Shown piece by piece: positions 51,787-56,809 of a stretch of DNA of 64,000 bases. How positions within the stretch are numbered: position 1 is the first letter of the stretch; each line of letters starts with the position of its first letter. The stretch is from Longimicrobiales bacterium. GTDB lineage: Bacteria; Gemmatimonadota; Gemmatimonadetes; Longimicrobiales; Gaopeijiaceae. A program made the translations under genes and the position numbers. The notes under the pieces are model-generated. The model saw only the letters and a program-made list of their open reading frames with translations, did no database searches and had not been told where the DNA came from. The stretch covers positions 569,250 through 633,249 of the forward strand of contig OZ242028.1 of NCBI GenBank assembly GCA_965205005.1. The letters run 5' to 3'.

Positions 51787-53340
51787 CTACTCCCGCCGGA
51801 GCACCTTCCCGGGCGTCGCACCCGTCACGGCACCGTCCTCGTAAACGACCACGCCCGCAACCCACACCCGCTCGATCCCCTCCGCAGTCAGATGCGGTTC
51901 CTCCGTCGTCGCACGGTCGATCACCGTGGCCGGGTCGAAGAGCACCAGGTCAGCCGGCGCACCCGCCGTCAGAACCCCGCGGCCCGACATCCCCATGTGG
52001 GCCGCCGCCAGCCCGGTCATCTTGTGGACGGCGTCCTCCAGCCGCAGCCGCCCCGCCTCCCGCACGTAGCGCCCCAGCACGCGCGGATATGTGCCGAAAC
52101 CGCGCGGGTGCGCGCCCCGCAGGCCCCCGTCGCTCGACACGTTCGTGTGCGGCCAGGCCATCAGCGTCGCGATGTCGTCGACGGTCATGCTCCTCGCGAC
52201 GATGCTCTCGCGGCCGTCCCGCCCCGCCGCTTCCTCGGTCCGCGACTCCGCGATCAGGTCCAGATAGGTCGTGACCGCGTCGGTCCCCCGCTCGGCGGCA
52301 ATCCGAGCCAACGTCATCCCTTCCAGCGTCGGGTCCGGCCCGAAACGCCCGATGATCATCCCGTCGGGCGCGACCAGCTCCTCCAGCGCGTAGCGCGCGG
52401 CTTCCCGATCGGTAAAATCGCGCTCCGGAAACAGCACCGTCATCGTCGACTGCCAGTACTCGTACGGGTAAACGTCCGCCGTGATGTCCAGGCCGGCCGT
52501 GCGCGCCTCGTCCAGCCGCGCCAGCAGGTCAGCCGCCTGCCCCCACAGCCCCCGCGCGGCCAGCTTAAAGTGCGAGATCTGCACCGGCAGCCGCGCGCGC
52601 TCCGCAATCTCGATCGTCTCCTCGATGGCGTCGAGCAGGGCACGGTCCTCGCTCCGCATGTGCGAGATGTAGCGTCCCCCGCTCGCCGCCGCCGTCATCG
52701 CCAGCGCGACCACCTCGTCCGTTGACGAGTAGATCCCCGGGTCGTACTCCAGGCCGGTCGAAAGCCCCAGCGCCCCGCTCGCCAGTTCAGTCTCCAGCAG
52801 TTCCTGCATCGCCGCGACCTCTTCCCCCGTAGCCTCCCGGCGGAAGTCGTCGCCCATGACCTGCCGCCGCAGCGTGCCGTGCCCCGAATACGACGCCACG
52901 TTGACCGCCGCCGGCGTCGCCTCCAGCGCCGCGAAGAAGTCCGCAATCGGGAACCGCGACCCACCGTCCTGTCCCGCGACAATCGTGGTGATCCCCTGGC
53001 TGACTGCGGCCAGCGCCGCGCGCTCCTCAAGCAGGCCGGCGTCGTGGTGGCTGTGCGTGTCGATGAAGCCGGGCGCCAGCACGAGCCCGCTGCCATCATG
53101 GACCGGCTCGCTGTTTTTGGGTGTGAGGGCGTCGTCCCCGTCGGCGGCCACCACCGCGGCGATGACCCCGCCGTCCACACGCACGGAACCGATGTAGCCG
53201 GGACTCCCCGTTCCGTCCACGATGGTGGCGCCTTCGATAATGAACGTATCGGCGACCGGCGGCGCGCCCGTGTCGGCGCACCCGGACAGGAGGGGAAGCC
53301 ACGCGGTAAACAGCAGGCCCACCCCCAGGCGGCGACCCAT
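51787..53340 (-). CDS. N-acyl-D-amino-acid deacylase family amidohydrolase, lipoprotein
   Basis: MGRRLGVGLLFTAWLPLLSGC lipobox. GFIDTHSHHD metal motif. C-terminal PADLVLFDP. Confidence 0.8.
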   Translation of the reverse strand: MGRRLGVGLLFTAWLPLLSGCADTGAPPVADTFIIEGATIVDGTGSPGYIGSVRVDGGVIAAVVAADGDDALTPKNSEPVHDGSGLVLAPGFIDTHSHHDAGLLEERAALAAVSQGITTIVAGQDGGSRFPIADFFAALEATPAAVNVASYSGHGTLRRQVMGDDFRREATGEEVAAMQELLETELASGALGLSTGLEYDPGIYSSTDEVVALAMTAAASGGRYISHMRSEDRALLDAIEETIEIAERARLPVQISHFKLAARGLWGQAADLLARLDEARTAGLDITADVYPYEYWQSTMTVLFPERDFTDREAARYALEELVAPDGMIIGRFGPDPTLEGMTLARIAAERGTDAVTTYLDLIAESRTEEAAGRDGRESIVARSMTVDDIATLMAWPHTNVSSDGGLRGAHPRGFGTYPRVLGRYVREAGRLRLEDAVHKMTGLAAAHMGMSGRGVLTAGAPADLVLFDPATVIDRATTEEPHLTAEGIERVWVAGVVVYEDGAVTGATPGKVLRRE

Positions 53341-53401
53341 GTCAACTTTACTATACATAATGTCAATCACGGTTTACATATTGGCTGCGGTGGCAGCACC
53401 C

Positions 53402-54976
53402 TCAACCCCGATCCACCTCCGGCACGGCCCTGTCCATCTCGGCGGCCACCTCCTGCGGATCGCGCATCTGCGTCAGGTCGAGATCGTAGTTCGGCACCTC
53501 GCGCGGCACGAGCTTCTCCTTGAGCTCGCGGATCTCGCGGCCCGACAGGCCCAGCCCGGCAAGTTCGGCGTTGGTCAGCGCGGCGCCGTCACGCGCCGAG
53601 ACCCCGTCGCCGTCGGCCGCCACCAGGCGGGACAGCGCTGCGATTTCGGCGCCGGTGAGCTTGTCGCCCATGACCTGGTAGTCGATCCAGGCCTCGTAGC
53701 TCAGCGGCGCGACGCGCTTGACCATCCCGGCCATGACCCGCCCGTACTCCTGGATCTCCCACTGGGCGTGGTCGTCGACGCGGAGCGTGAGGAAATGGAG
53801 CAGGTTGTGCAGGTCGATCTTCCAGTACCACTGCGTGTAGGTCGAGAGCGGCAGGTCGATGCGGGCGAGTTCGCGGGCCACGTTCTCGCCCACCAGCCAC
53901 CCGTAGTCGTCGGCCGCCCGGGCGCGGACGTCCTCCCAGCGGCGGATGGCCTCGCCGTAGAACTCGGGGCTGACCGAACCGGGCGCCCGCCCCTGGTTGC
54001 TCGTCGCGCTCTGCAGCGAGAACTGGTCGTGCTCGGGGCTGTAGAAAAGGAGCGGCATGAGGCTGTACCGGCCGCTGTACTCGTTGACCGAGTTGTGGGT
54101 GACAATGCCGTTCGCGACGAAGTTGTGGTGCGGGCCCTCCACCTCAAGGTCGTAGGTTTCGCGTTCGCCCACAAACTCCAGGCGGGCGATGCGGATGAGC
54201 TTGGCTCTGTAGTACCAGGTCCAGTCCCGCTGCTCCGCCGCTCCGTTCACGTACACGAAGTAGTCCCCCTGCCTCCACACCGCCCGCCCGCCGGTTTCCC
54301 TCACTCCGGTCGCCCCGCGGAGCGTGTCCCAGCCCCCGGCAAACAGGAAACGGTGATCCGCCGTGGCCTCGATCGACTTGCCGTCCTCCAGCACCATCCT
54401 GAAGACCGGCTTCACACCGTTGCGGTAGACGTCCACCACACGAGTGTGCTGCATCGCAAGCTTGTCCTCGTCAACCTGCCGGAGCTTCATGCGTTTCACG
54501 CGGTCGCGGCGGAAGAAGGGGTTTCGCTGCTTGTCGGGGCGTGACCTGTTCCGCGTGGGCTGGAACCGCCGCCAGATCTCTTCGATGGGCAGTTTGTACA
54601 GCTGCCGACGCCCACGGGCCTCCGCTCCAGGCAGGTCGAAGTAGACATCAGTGCCTTCTGCCAGACACGCCGTCCGGTGCCGCACCCACTGCCGAGCCAC
54701 GAACATCGGCATCGCGCAGTGAAACTTGAACTCGACCATTTCGGACGGGGTCGTGTGAAGGTGCCGCCGCAGGTACCGGATCAGCCCCCGGGTAGCCGAG
54801 ACCTTCCGCGTCCCATAGCCGTAACTCACGCGCGCCGCCCGCTCCACCGAGTCATCGGTTCCCATGTAGTCGACAAGCGCGACAAAACCGTGGTCGAGAA
54901 CCGGGAAATAGCCGCCCAGAATCTCTTCGGCGGCGGGGACGGTGGGGCGGCGGGTGGGGTGCGAAGTCGGTTCCAT
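53402..54976 (-). CDS. thyX: FAD-dependent thymidylate synthase ThyX, interrupted by a mini-intein
   Basis: Exteins: ...GFVALVDYMGTDDSVERAARVSYG...FVARQWVRHRTA and SVNEYSGRYS...IDLHNLLHFLTLR. Joined, they give the ThyX motif RHRTASVNEYSGRY. ATG 54976 is preferred over the listed TTG 54985. Confidence 0.85.
   Translation of the reverse strand: MEPTSHPTRRPTVPAAEEILGGYFPVLDHGFVALVDYMGTDDSVERAARVSYGYGTRKVSATRGLIRYLRRHLHTTPSEMVEFKFHCAMPMFVARQWVRHRTACLAEGTDVYFDLPGAEARGRRQLYKLPIEEIWRRFQPTRNRSRPDKQRNPFFRRDRVKRMKLRQVDEDKLAMQHTRVVDVYRNGVKPVFRMVLEDGKSIEATADHRFLFAGGWDTLRGATGVRETGGRAVWRQGDYFVYVNGAAEQRDWTWYYRAKLIRIARLEFVGERETYDLEVEGPHHNFVANGIVTHNSVNEYSGRYSLMPLLFYSPEHDQFSLQSATSNQGRAPGSVSPEFYGEAIRRWEDVRARAADDYGWLVGENVARELARIDLPLSTYTQWYWKIDLHNLLHFLTLRVDDHAQWEIQEYGRVMAGMVKRVAPLSYEAWIDYQVMGDKLTGAEIAALSRLVAADGDGVSARDGAALTNAELAGLGLSGREIRELKEKLVPREVPNYDLDLTQMRDPQEVAAEMDRAVPEVDRG
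54092..54667 (-). mobile_element. 192-aa mini-intein inserted in the ThyX signature motif
   Basis: It begins CLAEGTDVYF (block A, Cys1; the codon TGT is at 54665-54667). EATADHRF supplies the TxxH block B. It ends YDLEVEGPHHNFVANGIVTHN followed by Ser+1. No LAGLIDADG or HNH signature was seen. Confidence 0.8.
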
Positions 54977-55081
54977 GGCTCCCAAGCTAACCCGTTGCCG
55001 CCGAATCGGGCGAGACGCGGTTGCGCCCCCTCACGGACCCGAGTATCGGTACCCTCACGACTCCCGACACAAGAGGATCCC

Positions 55082-56809
55082 ATGCCACAGCATGCCCCGA
55101 TGAATCGCGCCGTCACACTCGCTGCGGCAGCCGCCTGCCTGATCCTTTCGTCGTGCGGCCCCCAGCCCGAGCCGGACGTCCCCCGCGGCATGGTCACCGG
55201 CACCACGGGCGCTGCCGCCATCGAAGGCGGCGTCGAAATCCTCAAGGCCGGAGGCAGCGCCGCCGACGCCGCCATGTCGACCGCCCTCACCCAGATCTGC
55301 ATGGCCGCCGGCTCGTGGGTCAGCTACGCGGGCCTCATGACGATGGTCTACTACGACGCCGAAAGCGGCGAGGTCCACAACATGAACGCGGCCTACAACA
55401 CCGTCGCCGCCGAGACCGATCCGCTGTCCATCCCCGGAATCGACCTGACCGCCGGATTCGGCGGCTTCGAGGCCGAGCCCAACGGCCGCACCGTTCTCGT
55501 TCCCGGCTTCATGAGGGGTGTCGAGGCCGCCAGCGAGCGCTTCGGCAAGCTCCCCTTCGGCGACCTGTTCACGTCGGCCATCGCGTGCGCCGAGGACGGC
55601 TTCGAGTATCAGGAAGGCAACGCGGGTCAGTATGTGTTCAGGGAACAAGTGTTGAGCCGTCTGCCCGAAACGAAGGCTGTTTTCACAAAGGCGGACGGAT
55701 CGCCCTACGAAGCGGGCGACATGTTCACCCAGCCCGCGCTGGCCCGAACCCTGCGCATGGTGGCCGAACAGGGCGCGGACTACATGTACGCGGGGCCGTG
55801 GGCCGAAAAGCTCGTCCAGCTGGTCGGCGACATCGGCGGCCTGATGACCGTCGAGGACCTCGCCAACTACGAGGTCGTCTGGAGCGAGCCCGCGCGCGGC
55901 AGCTACCGCGGCTACGACCTGTACGCCCACGGCAGCCCGGCCGAAGGCGGCATCGGCCTGATCGAGGCCATGAACCTCGCCGAACTGGCCGGCGTCTCCG
56001 ACTACGGCCACTACGGCGACTCGCCCGAGGCGCTCTTCTGGCTCACGCAGATCGCGCGGCCGGGCCTCACCTTCGCGATCGGCGGCCAGGAAGCCGCGGA
56101 CGGCATCGCGGCGATGATCGGCAGCGACCTCACCCACGAGACGCGTGTGCGGAAGGAGACCTCGGCGAAGCTCTGGGGCGCGATCCAGGACGGATCGTTC
56201 CCCGGCGTGGTCGTTCCGGAGGGCGCCGCCGCCCCGCACTCGGACGCCGTCGTCTCCATCGACCAGTGGGGCAACATCGCCGCGGTCGTGCACTCCATCA
56301 ACACGGTGAGCTGGGGCACCACCGGAATCTTCGTCGACGGCATCTCGATCCCCGACTCCGGGATCTTCCAGCAGGGCATGATGGCCCAGATCGAGCCCGG
56401 CAGCCGCCTTCCCGACCCCACCAACTCCGGCCTGGTACTCAGGGACGGCAAGCCGTTCATGGGGTTCAGCTCGATCGGCTCGGGGCTCCACCAGCGCACC
56501 ATCGGCGGCCTGCTGAGCGTGCTGGACTTCGGGCTCACCCCGCGCGAGGCCGTCGACAAGCCAGCGCTGGGCTCGTTCTCGTTCAGCGCGCTCGGAGAGG
56601 GCGCGTCGGGCCCCGCCGGACTGGACGTGGGAGTAGGCGACTACCCCCCCGAGTTCATCGCCGAGGTCGAAGCGATGGGCCAGCCGATCGCGGAGAACGA
56701 CGCCACCAGGGGCTACTGGATCGCGATCATGATCGACCCGGAGACCGGCGACCTGCACGGGGCGTCGATCCGGGGACTCGAGTTGGGCGGGCGCGCGGTC
56801 GGGTATTGA
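55082..56809 (+). CDS. Gamma-glutamyltransferase family lipoprotein
   Basis: MPQHAPMNRAVTLAAAAACLILSSC lipobox. GGSAADAAMSTALTQ at the N-terminus. VSIDQWGNIAAVVHSINT (region of the autoprocessing nucleophile). Confidence 0.8.
   Translation: MPQHAPMNRAVTLAAAAACLILSSCGPQPEPDVPRGMVTGTTGAAAIEGGVEILKAGGSAADAAMSTALTQICMAAGSWVSYAGLMTMVYYDAESGEVHNMNAAYNTVAAETDPLSIPGIDLTAGFGGFEAEPNGRTVLVPGFMRGVEAASERFGKLPFGDLFTSAIACAEDGFEYQEGNAGQYVFREQVLSRLPETKAVFTKADGSPYEAGDMFTQPALARTLRMVAEQGADYMYAGPWAEKLVQLVGDIGGLMTVEDLANYEVVWSEPARGSYRGYDLYAHGSPAEGGIGLIEAMNLAELAGVSDYGHYGDSPEALFWLTQIARPGLTFAIGGQEAADGIAAMIGSDLTHETRVRKETSAKLWGAIQDGSFPGVVVPEGAAAPHSDAVVSIDQWGNIAAVVHSINTVSWGTTGIFVDGISIPDSGIFQQGMMAQIEPGSRLPDPTNSGLVLRDGKPFMGFSSIGSGLHQRTIGGLLSVLDFGLTPREAVDKPALGSFSFSALGEGASGPAGLDVGVGDYPPEFIAEVEAMGQPIAENDATRGYWIAIMIDPETGDLHGASIRGLELGGRAVGY

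What the first reader, a model, noticed from the sequence alone, without database searches (positions are those of the whole stretch)
54092..54667. Mini-intein splitting the catalytic signature of ThyX
The thyX ORF (524 codons) is about twice the usual ThyX length. Its translation breaks the family signature: ...FVARQWVRHRTA | CLAEGTDVYF...NFVANGIVTHN | SVNEYSGRYS.... Deleting the 192-aa insert restores RHRTASVNEYSGRY, the RHR...S...SxRY ThyX motif. The insert has the hallmarks of a Hint splicing domain:
- Cys1 in a CLxxxT block A.
- TADH as a TxxH block B.
- A YDLEVEGPHHNFVANGIVTHN block F/G ending in His-Asn, with Ser as the +1 extein residue.
No homing-endonuclease signature is visible. A very basic segment (RFQPTRNRSRPDKQRNPFFRRDRVKRMKLRQ) sits where an endonuclease would be. 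An essential dTMP-synthesis enzyme here therefore depends on protein splicing.
Basis: partly seen in the sequence, partly recalled or inferred. Interest (0 to 1): 0.7.

Follow-up and report, generated by a model that had tools for sequence, protein, structure and literature searches.

The report
Mini-intein inside thymidylate synthase ThyX
The thyX gene here is interrupted, inside its active-site motif, by a 192-residue self-splicing protein element (an intein) that has lost its homing nuclease; this kind of element at this exact site is common and already known, so the finding is real but ordinary.

Summary
The thyX ORF (53402..54976, minus strand, 524 codons) carries a 192-codon in-frame insert at 54092..54667. 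Removing it restores RHRTASVNEYSGRY and one uninterrupted ThyX profile match.

The insert is a canonical class 1 intein:
- It passes the curated intein profile cut-offs.
- Cys1, TADH, the block F Asp, the terminal His-Asn and Ser+1 sit in conserved alignment columns.
- A confident AlphaFold model (pLDDT 89) matches only solved inteins and other Hint-fold domains.

The basic segment is not in the endonuclease slot. Close relatives carry an HTH+HNH endonuclease of 189 extra residues about 85 residues further on, between AAEQR and AKLIR. The window allele keeps only a fast-evolving scar there. The basic segment is a conserved helix-loop-helix insert before block B, shared by many ThyX inteins.

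The same insertion point is occupied in:
- 71 of the 150 best 50%-identity cluster representatives;
- Mycobacterium phages;
- Thermoplasmata archaea.

Intein-free alleles exist in the same order (Longimicrobiales, Gemmatimonadota).

Verdict: a degenerate, vertically inherited, probably splicing-competent mini-intein, and a new member of a known kind. Splicing itself, and whether ThyX is the only dTMP source, remain untested.

The parts
53402..54976 (-). thyX precursor ORF: 524 codons from the ATG at 54976, plus the stop codon at 53402-53404
   Evidence: PF02511 and TIGR02170 match above their cut-offs. Homologues start at the same Met.
54668..54976 (-). N-extein, ThyX residues 1-103, ending ...ARQWVRHRTA
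   Evidence: It aligns to solved ThyX up to the junction.
54092..54667 (-). Class 1 mini-intein, 192 residues, from Cys1 to Asn192
   Evidence: PF14890, TIGR01445 and TIGR01443 match above their cut-offs. phmmer hits DnaB, RecA and DnaE mini-inteins. The AF2 model has pLDDT 89.4. Foldseek TM-scores (normalised by target length) reach 0.86 against solved inteins.
54629..54667 (-). Block A, CLAEGTDVYFDLP, with the Cys1 nucleophile
   Evidence: C1 is invariant in 72 ThyX inteins. TIGR01445 starts at residue 1.
54476..54568 (-). Basic insert RFQPTRNRSRPDKQRNPFFRRDRVKRMKLRQ (intein residues 34-64), a family-specific helix-loop-helix addition to the N-terminal lobe of the Hint domain
   Evidence: - It has no counterpart in the DnaB mini-intein.
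- It is conserved in many ThyX-intein cluster representatives and in the HNH-bearing alleles.
- It is modelled with pLDDT 90-94.
- dN/dS is 0.01-0.09 where computable.
54353..54364 (-). Block B, TADH (Thr102, His105)
   Evidence: It aligns to TANH and TGNH of the DnaB inteins. The His is invariant.
54200..54235 (-). Scar of the deleted HTH+HNH homing endonuclease, EQRDWTWYYRAK (residues 145-156)
   Evidence: - Relatives L003 and L007 have 189-190 extra codons here.
- This is the only model segment with pLDDT below 50.
- dN/dS is 0.14-1.2, against about 0.07-0.13 for the intein as a whole where computable.
54092..54157 (-). Blocks F and G, TYDLEVEGPHHNFVANGIVTHN, with the block F Asp, the penultimate His191 and the terminal Asn192
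   Evidence: TIGR01443 matches. D, H and N are invariant. It aligns to the C-termini of solved inteins.
54089..54091 (-). +1 Ser, first residue of the C-extein and first Ser of the ThyX motif S-x-N-E-x-S-x-R-Y
   Evidence: It is invariant in 72 ThyX-intein proteins.
53405..54091 (-). C-extein, 229 residues: the ThyX core followed by a C-terminal tail of about 95 residues with no family match
   Evidence: The tail evolves faster, with dN/dS 0.11-0.55.

Best explanation
The insert is a canonical class 1 mini-intein sitting in the active-site motif of the flavin-dependent thymidylate synthase ThyX. It is the remnant of a mobile intein that once carried an HTH+HNH homing endonuclease.

**History.** The endonuclease module (189 codons) was deleted in an ancestor of this lineage. 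What remains is the Hint splicing domain plus a 12-residue scar. The element can therefore no longer home on its own and is inherited vertically. Selection keeps it only in so far as it must still excise itself.

**Mechanism (inferred from the conserved residues, not shown).**
1. The 60 kDa precursor folds.
2. Cys1 makes a thioester with Ala-1.
3. The Ser+1 hydroxyl attacks the thioester and forms a branched ester.
4. Asn192 cyclises, helped by His191 and the block F Asp and His, and releases the 22.6 kDa intein.
5. An O-to-N shift makes the Ala-Ser peptide bond. This yields a 37.6 kDa ThyX with an intact RHRTASVNEYSGRY motif.

Until then the RHR arginines and the SxRY residues, which in solved ThyX enzymes line the dUMP site, are held apart. 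The precursor should therefore be inactive.

**The basic segment.** It is not an endonuclease substitute. It is a conserved structured insert in the N-terminal lobe of this intein family. It is most likely a structural element that also served DNA contact during homing.
For: **Shown**
- The intein profiles match above their curated cut-offs, and ThyX is restored by deleting the insert.
- All catalytic positions are invariant in 72 ThyX inteins: C1, the block B His, the block F Asp, His-Asn and Ser+1.
- The model is confident (pLDDT 89.4, pTM 0.84), and all 50 listed Foldseek PDB hits are inteins or Hint-fold domains.
- Close relatives at 92-96% extein identity carry PF01844 HNH plus an HTH exactly between AAEQR and AKLIR. 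Intermediates of 213-261 residues show stepwise decay.
- Purifying selection on the intein (dN/dS 0.07-0.10 against the four closest alleles) equals that on the exteins (0.04-0.22). The scar is relaxed, at 0.14-1.2.
- The distribution is sporadic. Intein-free alleles occur in the same order: L005 (331 aa, reading RHRTASLNEYSGRYS, extein identity 91-96%), L048, L010 and L013.
- The same site is occupied in 71 of the 150 best cluster representatives, in Mycobacterium phage Norm and in Thermoplasmata archaea. The endonucleases there are of several types: HNH_3+NUMOD4 in 26 members, HNH in 18, LAGLIDADG in 2.

**From the literature**
- ThyX inteins are catalogued. The Ter ThyX intein splices at about 100% efficiency after its endonuclease domain is removed (PMC3620165).
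- Mycobacteriophage ThyX inteins lie in the active centre (PMC5050341).
Against: - No experiment shows splicing of this allele.
- The scar region and the basic insert have not been tested for any effect on splicing rate.
- It is not shown that ThyX is this organism's only thymidylate synthase, so physiological dependence on splicing is an inference.
- Pairwise dS values are near saturation (0.6-1.3). The dN/dS values are therefore approximate.
Confidence: 0.88

Rival explanations
1. The intein has been domesticated as a conditional switch. The conserved basic helix-loop-helix insert binds a ligand (DNA, RNA or a nucleotide) and makes ThyX maturation depend on cell state. Splicing would then be regulated rather than constitutive.
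For: - The insert is conserved across many ThyX-intein clusters.
- It is confidently modelled as structured.
- It has low dN/dS even between two endonuclease-free alleles (window against L009, 0.09).
- In the window allele it is still close to the family consensus (divergence 0.10, against 0.09 for the core).
Against: - In several other mini-intein lineages the central loop of the insert has drifted much more than the Hint core. In P0043, P0044, P0046, P0047 and P0049 the insert divergence is 0.40-0.53 against 0.14-0.21 for the core. The insert-to-core divergence ratio is 1.69 in minis against 1.2 in endonuclease-bearing alleles, Mann-Whitney p = 0.025, not corrected for phylogeny. This fits a homing-related role that relaxes after endonuclease loss better than it fits a host-beneficial switch.
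- No ligand-binding family matches the insert.
Confidence: 0.08
2. The gene is a non-functional relic. The intein no longer splices, ThyX is dead, and dTMP comes from ThyA or salvage encoded elsewhere.
For: - The endonuclease is lost, and the scar evolves almost neutrally.
- At least one relative (L004) has an aberrant allele with a duplicated extein segment and only the C-terminal intein remnant.
Against: - The ORF is intact in the window and in dozens of independent assemblies.
- Every splicing residue is kept.
- Both exteins and the splicing blocks are under strong purifying selection, with dN/dS 0.04-0.11 against the closest alleles.
- No ThyA signature is found in the window, although 64 kb is a small sample.
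Confidence: 0.03
3. The insert is a lineage-specific ThyX domain that is not removed and is not a Hint domain.
For: None beyond the fact that splicing was not observed directly.
Against: - The profile matches, catalytic residues and predicted fold are all intein-specific.
- Intein-free orthologues at more than 90% extein identity lack the insert precisely, to the residue.
Confidence: 0.01

Closest known systems
ThyX inteins of cluster C1 mycobacteriophages (Bixzunavirus, e.g. phage Norm gp94; Kelley et al. 2016, PMC5050341; bioRxiv 10.1101/2025.01.02.630785)
   Same: - The host protein is the same, and so is the insertion point, immediately before the first Ser of SxNExSxRY.
- They are class 1 inteins with Cys1, a terminal His-Asn and Ser+1.
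- They have an extra segment between the first helix and the following strand of the N-terminal lobe.
- Their endonuclease is an in-frame HNH, as in the window allele's full-length relatives.
   Different: - Identity to the window intein is only about 34% in the N-terminal part and 62% in the C-terminal part.
- The phage alleles keep the HNH domain (257 residues).
- Their N-lobe insert is of the 'WHEG' type, not the FQPT...RPDKQ type.
- The phage ThyX has one more residue between RHR and the intein.
Ter ThyX intein of Trichodesmium erythraeum (InBase; Lin et al. 2013, PMC3620165)
   Same: It is a catalogued intein in ThyX. It splices at about 100% efficiency once its endonuclease domain is deleted. 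That makes it the engineered equivalent of what deletion has produced naturally here.
   Different: I could not obtain its sequence with these tools. Identity of the insertion point and presence of the basic insert are therefore not tested. Any resemblance I recall is from memory only.
Full-length HTH+HNH ThyX inteins of Gemmatimonadota/Longimicrobiales MAGs (L003, L007, P0019, P0085) and Thermoplasmata archaea (L011, L012)
   Same: - They are the same intein family at the same site.
- Splicing-domain identity is 83-92% in the Gemmatimonadota alleles and 61-78% in the archaeal ones.
- They carry the same basic insert.
   Different: They carry 189-273 extra residues (one or two HTH modules plus PF01844 HNH) where the window has the scar EQRDWTWYYRAK.
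DnaB, RecA and DnaE mini-inteins with solved structures (4o1r, 1mi8, 2in9, 4kl5)
   Same: The Hint fold and the catalytic blocks A, B, F and G are the same.
   Different: They lack the roughly 30-residue basic insert; residue 60 of the window intein aligns to residue 30 of Ssp DnaB. Their host proteins differ.

Membership tests
Class 1 intein (Hint splicing domain) | Nucleophilic Cys or Ser as the first residue (block A) | tested here: met
   Cys1 lies in CLAEGT. It is invariant in 72 ThyX inteins. TIGR01445 aligns from residue 1.
Class 1 intein (Hint splicing domain) | Block B TxxH | tested here: met
   TADH at residues 102-105 aligns to TANH and TGNH of the DnaB inteins. The His is invariant.
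Class 1 intein (Hint splicing domain) | Block F Asp and His, and block G penultimate His with terminal Asn | tested here: met
   The sequence is YDLEVEGPHHNFVANGIVTHN. D, H191 and N192 are invariant. TIGR01443 scores 29 bits against a cut-off of 15.6.
Class 1 intein (Hint splicing domain) | Ser, Thr or Cys as the first C-extein residue | tested here: met
   Ser+1 is present and invariant.
Class 1 intein (Hint splicing domain) | Hint fold | tested here: met
   This rests on a predicted structure only. The AF2 model has pLDDT 89.4. All 50 listed Foldseek PDB hits are inteins or Hint domains, with E down to 9.5e-10 and target-normalised TM-score up to 0.86.
Class 1 intein (Hint splicing domain) | In-frame insertion whose precise removal restores a contiguous conserved host protein, with intein-free alleles in existence | tested here: met
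   The intein-free orthologues are L005, L048, L010 and L013.
Class 1 intein (Hint splicing domain) | Autocatalytic protein splicing | not testable with these tools
   This needs expression and detection of the 37.6 kDa ligated product.
Mini-intein (no homing endonuclease) | No endonuclease domain between blocks B and F | tested here: met
   No HNH, LAGLIDADG, GIY-YIG or similar hit at E<=1. There is a 189-codon gap relative to the HNH-bearing alleles.
Mobile (homing) intein | An encoded, intact homing endonuclease | tested here: not met
   Only a 12-residue scar remains.
ThyX / flavin-dependent thymidylate synthase (PF02511, TIGR02170) | Family profile match above the cut-off | tested here: met
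   For the joined exteins, PF02511 scores 170.9 bits (cut-off 24.8) and TIGR02170 scores 169.2 bits (cut-off 87.9).
ThyX / flavin-dependent thymidylate synthase (PF02511, TIGR02170) | ThyX motif RHRxxSxxxxSxRY | tested here: met
   RHRTASVNEYSGRY is present after in-silico splicing. It is split as RHRTA|S... in the precursor.
ThyX / flavin-dependent thymidylate synthase (PF02511, TIGR02170) | FAD- and NADPH-dependent dUMP methylation activity | not testable with these tools
   This needs an enzyme assay or complementation test.
ThyX-site intein allele family | Insertion immediately before the first Ser of SxNExSxRY, after the RHR motif | tested here: met
   The same junction occurs in 71 of 150 cluster representatives, in phage Norm and in the archaeal loci L011 and L012.

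The most novel reading that the evidence does not exclude
The conserved basic helix-loop-helix insert (FQPTxNxxRPDKQxNPxFKRDRVxxMxLR) in the N-terminal lobe of many ThyX inteins is an uncharacterised functional module. One possibility is a DNA-recognition element that gives the low-specificity HNH nuclease its target specificity for the thyX site. The bolder possibility is that, in endonuclease-free alleles such as this one, it is a nucleic-acid or nucleotide sensor that makes ThyX maturation, and hence dTMP supply, conditional.
Probability: 0.1. Interest if true: 0.5.

Novelty: new member of a known kind. Interest (0 to 1): 0.2.

Why it matters
For annotation, the gene should be read as thyX plus an intein, not as a double-length or fused ThyX. 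The mature enzyme is 332 residues.

Biologically it is a clean natural example of the late stage of the homing cycle. Within one bacterial order there are empty sites, full HTH+HNH alleles, partly deleted alleles and this minimal allele. The splicing blocks are kept under selection because the host enzyme needs them.

It adds nothing conceptually new. ThyX inteins at this site are numerous across Bacteria, Archaea and phages, and their splicing has been demonstrated for at least one allele (Ter ThyX).

The only open point of some interest is the function of the family-specific basic insert. No solved structure covers it.

Tried and rejected
- **Exact look-up of the window protein in public assemblies.** It is not on record. 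The nearest is P0002 (97% identity) on a 5.03 Mb contig with the same neighbouring genes.
- **Ter ThyX sequence and insertion point from the literature.** The paper text holds no sequence and the figures are not held. That comparison is left untested.
- **MAFFT DNA alignment of mini against full inteins.** It misplaced the large gap. I read the breakpoints from the protein alignment and from the flanking DNA instead.
- **Regular expressions for HNH and for the basic motif.** They were too crude. I replaced them with a Pfam scan of all 72 members.
- **The idea that the basic segment replaces the endonuclease.** I considered it and rejected it. The segment lies before block B and co-occurs with HNH in relatives.
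- **A second intein or a ThyA gene in the window.** None was found.
- **Foreign base composition of the intein.** GC3 is 0.84, against 0.83 and 0.94 for the two exteins. That is within the window's gene range of about 0.70-0.92 for long ORFs, so there is no sign of recent acquisition.
- **Selection analysis of the basic insert.** The results are mixed. dN/dS is low in the pairwise tests, but the central loop has drifted in several mini-intein lineages. No firm functional call is possible.

Full report
**Observation**

The minus-strand ORF 53402..54985 has 527 codons from a TTG. It has 524 codons from the ATG at 54976, which is where all homologues begin. The segment CLAEG...IVTHN is 192 residues and maps exactly to 54092..54667.

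In the intact protein the Pfam Thy1 profile matches in two pieces. With the insert removed it matches once, over profile positions 2-190 of 191 (E 3.5e-50). TIGR02170 then covers positions 1-211 of 211.

The joined exteins align without a gap across the junction to solved ThyX enzymes. 6j61 reads RHRTASVNEiSGRYS and T. maritima 1kq4 reads RHRiASyNElSGRYS.

**What the insert is**

- All three intein profiles pass their curated cut-offs: PF14890 (45.1 bits against 35.8), TIGR01445 (27.2 against 24.5) and TIGR01443 (29 against 15.6).
- phmmer against PDB sequences finds DnaB, DnaE, RecA and gp41-1 mini-inteins. TADH aligns to TANH or TGNH, and the C-terminus ...HNFVANGIVTHN aligns to ...HNFVANdIIVHN.
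- An AlphaFold2 model built on 36 homologues has mean pLDDT 89.4 and pTM 0.84.
- All 50 listed Foldseek matches in the PDB are inteins or other Hint domains. E-values go down to 9.5e-10 and the target-normalised TM-score reaches 0.86.
- In an alignment of 72 ThyX proteins with an intein at this site, these positions are invariant: Cys1, the block B His, the block F Asp, the penultimate His, the terminal Asn and Ser+1.

This is a canonical class 1 intein. No endonuclease family matches it, even at E<=1.

**Where the endonuclease was**

The protein search returned 120 listed homologues. All carry Thy1 plus Intein_splicing, and many of about 660-750 residues also carry PF01844 HNH and an HTH.

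Alignment shows the extra module lies between ...VNGAAE(Q/E)R and ...KAKLVRI... This is after block B and before block F, the usual endonuclease position.

The window has only EQRDWTWYYRAK there. The full alleles L003 and L007 have 189-190 more codons, giving inteins of 381-382 residues. Intermediate alleles of 213-261 residues keep fragments of the module, so the decay occurred in steps and more than once.

The scar is the only model segment with pLDDT below 50. It has dN/dS of 0.14-1.2. The intein as a whole has about 0.07-0.13 where computable, and the exteins 0.04-0.22 in the same comparisons.

**The basic segment**

- It has no counterpart in the DnaB mini-intein; window residue 60 aligns to DnaB residue 30.
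- It is present and conserved in the HNH-bearing relatives.
- It recurs as FQPTxNxxRPDKQxNPxFKRDRVxxMxLR in many of the 50%-identity cluster representatives of ThyX inteins. A second subfamily, including the mycobacteriophage alleles, has a 'WHEG' type insert of similar length.
- The model places a helix at 28-35, a loop, and a helix at 52-59, with pLDDT 90-94.

Pairwise dN/dS of the segment is 0.01-0.09 where computable. This includes the comparison with L009, which is also endonuclease-free. However, in several other mini-intein lineages the central loop has drifted far more than the Hint core. The insert-to-core divergence ratio is 1.69 in minis against 1.2 in HNH-bearing alleles, with p = 0.025, not corrected for phylogeny.

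My reading is as follows. The flanking helices are structural parts of this intein family. The basic loop probably helped DNA contact during homing and is slowly relaxing now. This is an inference.

**Distribution**

- In the 50%-identity representative library the intein alone finds 3082 proteins at E<=0.001.
- 71 of the best 150 have the junction RHRxx|C...HN|SxNExSxRY, and all of them are Thy1 plus intein.
- Their endonucleases are diverse: HNH_3+NUMOD4 in 26 members, HNH in 18, HNH_2 in 3 and LAGLIDADG in 2. Intein lengths run from 156 to 479 residues.
- Mycobacterium phage Norm ThyX has an HNH intein immediately before the same Ser. This class is described in PMC5050341 and in bioRxiv 10.1101/2025.01.02.630785.
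- Two Thermoplasmata archaeal MAGs carry the same family with two HTH modules plus HNH. Their intein identity to the window (61-78%) exceeds C-extein identity (46-47%). This points to horizontal spread between domains.
- Among GTDB species representatives labelled Gemmatimonadota, Longimicrobiales or Palauibacter, only 5 of about 27 classifiable loci have the intein (my count).
- L005, a Longimicrobiales chromosome, has an intein-free 331-residue ThyX reading RHRTASLNEYSGRYS, at 91-96% extein identity.

This sporadic pattern is the hallmark of a mobile element.

**Organism and context**

The nearest protein (97% identity) lies on a 5.03 Mb contig. It has the same neighbours as in the window: gamma-glutamyltranspeptidase, thyX, amidohydrolase. 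Names given by the sources point to Gemmatimonadota/Longimicrobiales, with several evidently inconsistent MAG labels.

The intein's GC3 (0.84) is within the range of the window's genes. The window holds no second intein and no ThyA signature.

**Mechanism**

From the conserved residues I infer the standard four steps:
1. An N-S acyl shift at Cys1.
2. Transesterification to Ser+1.
3. Asn192 cyclisation.
4. An O-N shift that makes the Ala-Ser bond.

The 60.2 kDa precursor would be converted into a 37.6 kDa ThyX and a 22.6 kDa intein. Engineered removal of the endonuclease from the Ter ThyX intein leaves about 100% splicing (PMC3620165), so a natural deletion of this kind is compatible with activity.

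None of these steps was observed here. Whether the cell depends on this ThyX is also untested.

**Verdict**

It is a further member of a large, already catalogued family of ThyX inteins, in the endonuclease-free end state of the homing cycle. Interest is low. The only loose end worth an experiment is the role of the family-specific basic insert.

Noticed in passing
L004:3001-4224 (CBDCSL010000002.1, labelled Vicinamibacterales): An aberrant thyX allele of 408 codons. It has a duplicated extein stretch (HCAMP...RHRTSSINEYSGR), followed by only the C-terminal ~45 residues of the intein, and then SVNEYSGRYS again. It has no Cys1 and no N-terminal splicing domain. It could be a recombination product, a dead gene or a long-read assembly error.
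   Followed up: no
L011:3001-5271 and L012:3001-5262 (Thermoplasmata archaeon MAGs): Archaeal ThyX genes carry the same intein family at the same site, with two HTH modules plus HNH (465 residues). Intein identity to the window (61-78%) is higher than C-extein identity (46-47%). This suggests intein transfer between Bacteria and Archaea.
   Followed up: partly
window 53405-53689 (-), ThyX residues ~430-524: The ThyX of this clade has a C-terminal tail of about 95 residues with no Pfam or NCBIfam match. It evolves faster than the core, with dN/dS 0.11-0.55 and amino-acid identity falling to 40-50% where the core keeps 73-77%. Its function is unknown.
   Followed up: partly
P0020 (582 aa homologue), intein residues ~17-75: There is a secondary insertion of about 58 residues (ASSAGMNPAEHRERSGAGLARRDEGAV...) inside the loop after block A of an otherwise near-identical mini-intein.
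   Followed up: no
P0162, P0193, P0215, P0216, P0242 (representative search hits, 897-1025 aa): These ThyX proteins have the intein at residue ~395-450 instead of ~100. The ThyX is therefore fused to an N-terminal region of about 300-350 residues of unknown identity.
   Followed up: no
(source names of homologues): Near-identical ThyX-intein proteins are labelled Gemmatimonadota, Longimicrobiales, Gammaproteobacteria, Akkermansiaceae or Vicinamibacterales by their sources. This probably reflects mis-binning or mislabelling of MAGs.
   Followed up: no
window 53222-54544 (+) and other long ORFs overlapping thyX: A 440-codon antisense ORF and several others overlap thyX. They are the usual stop-poor frames of DNA with about 68% GC, not genes.
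   Followed up: partly
window 51787-53370 (-) and 54677-56809 (+): The neighbours of thyX are an Amidohydro_3-type amidohydrolase and a gamma-glutamyltranspeptidase. The same arrangement is found in the closest relative (L082).
   Followed up: partly
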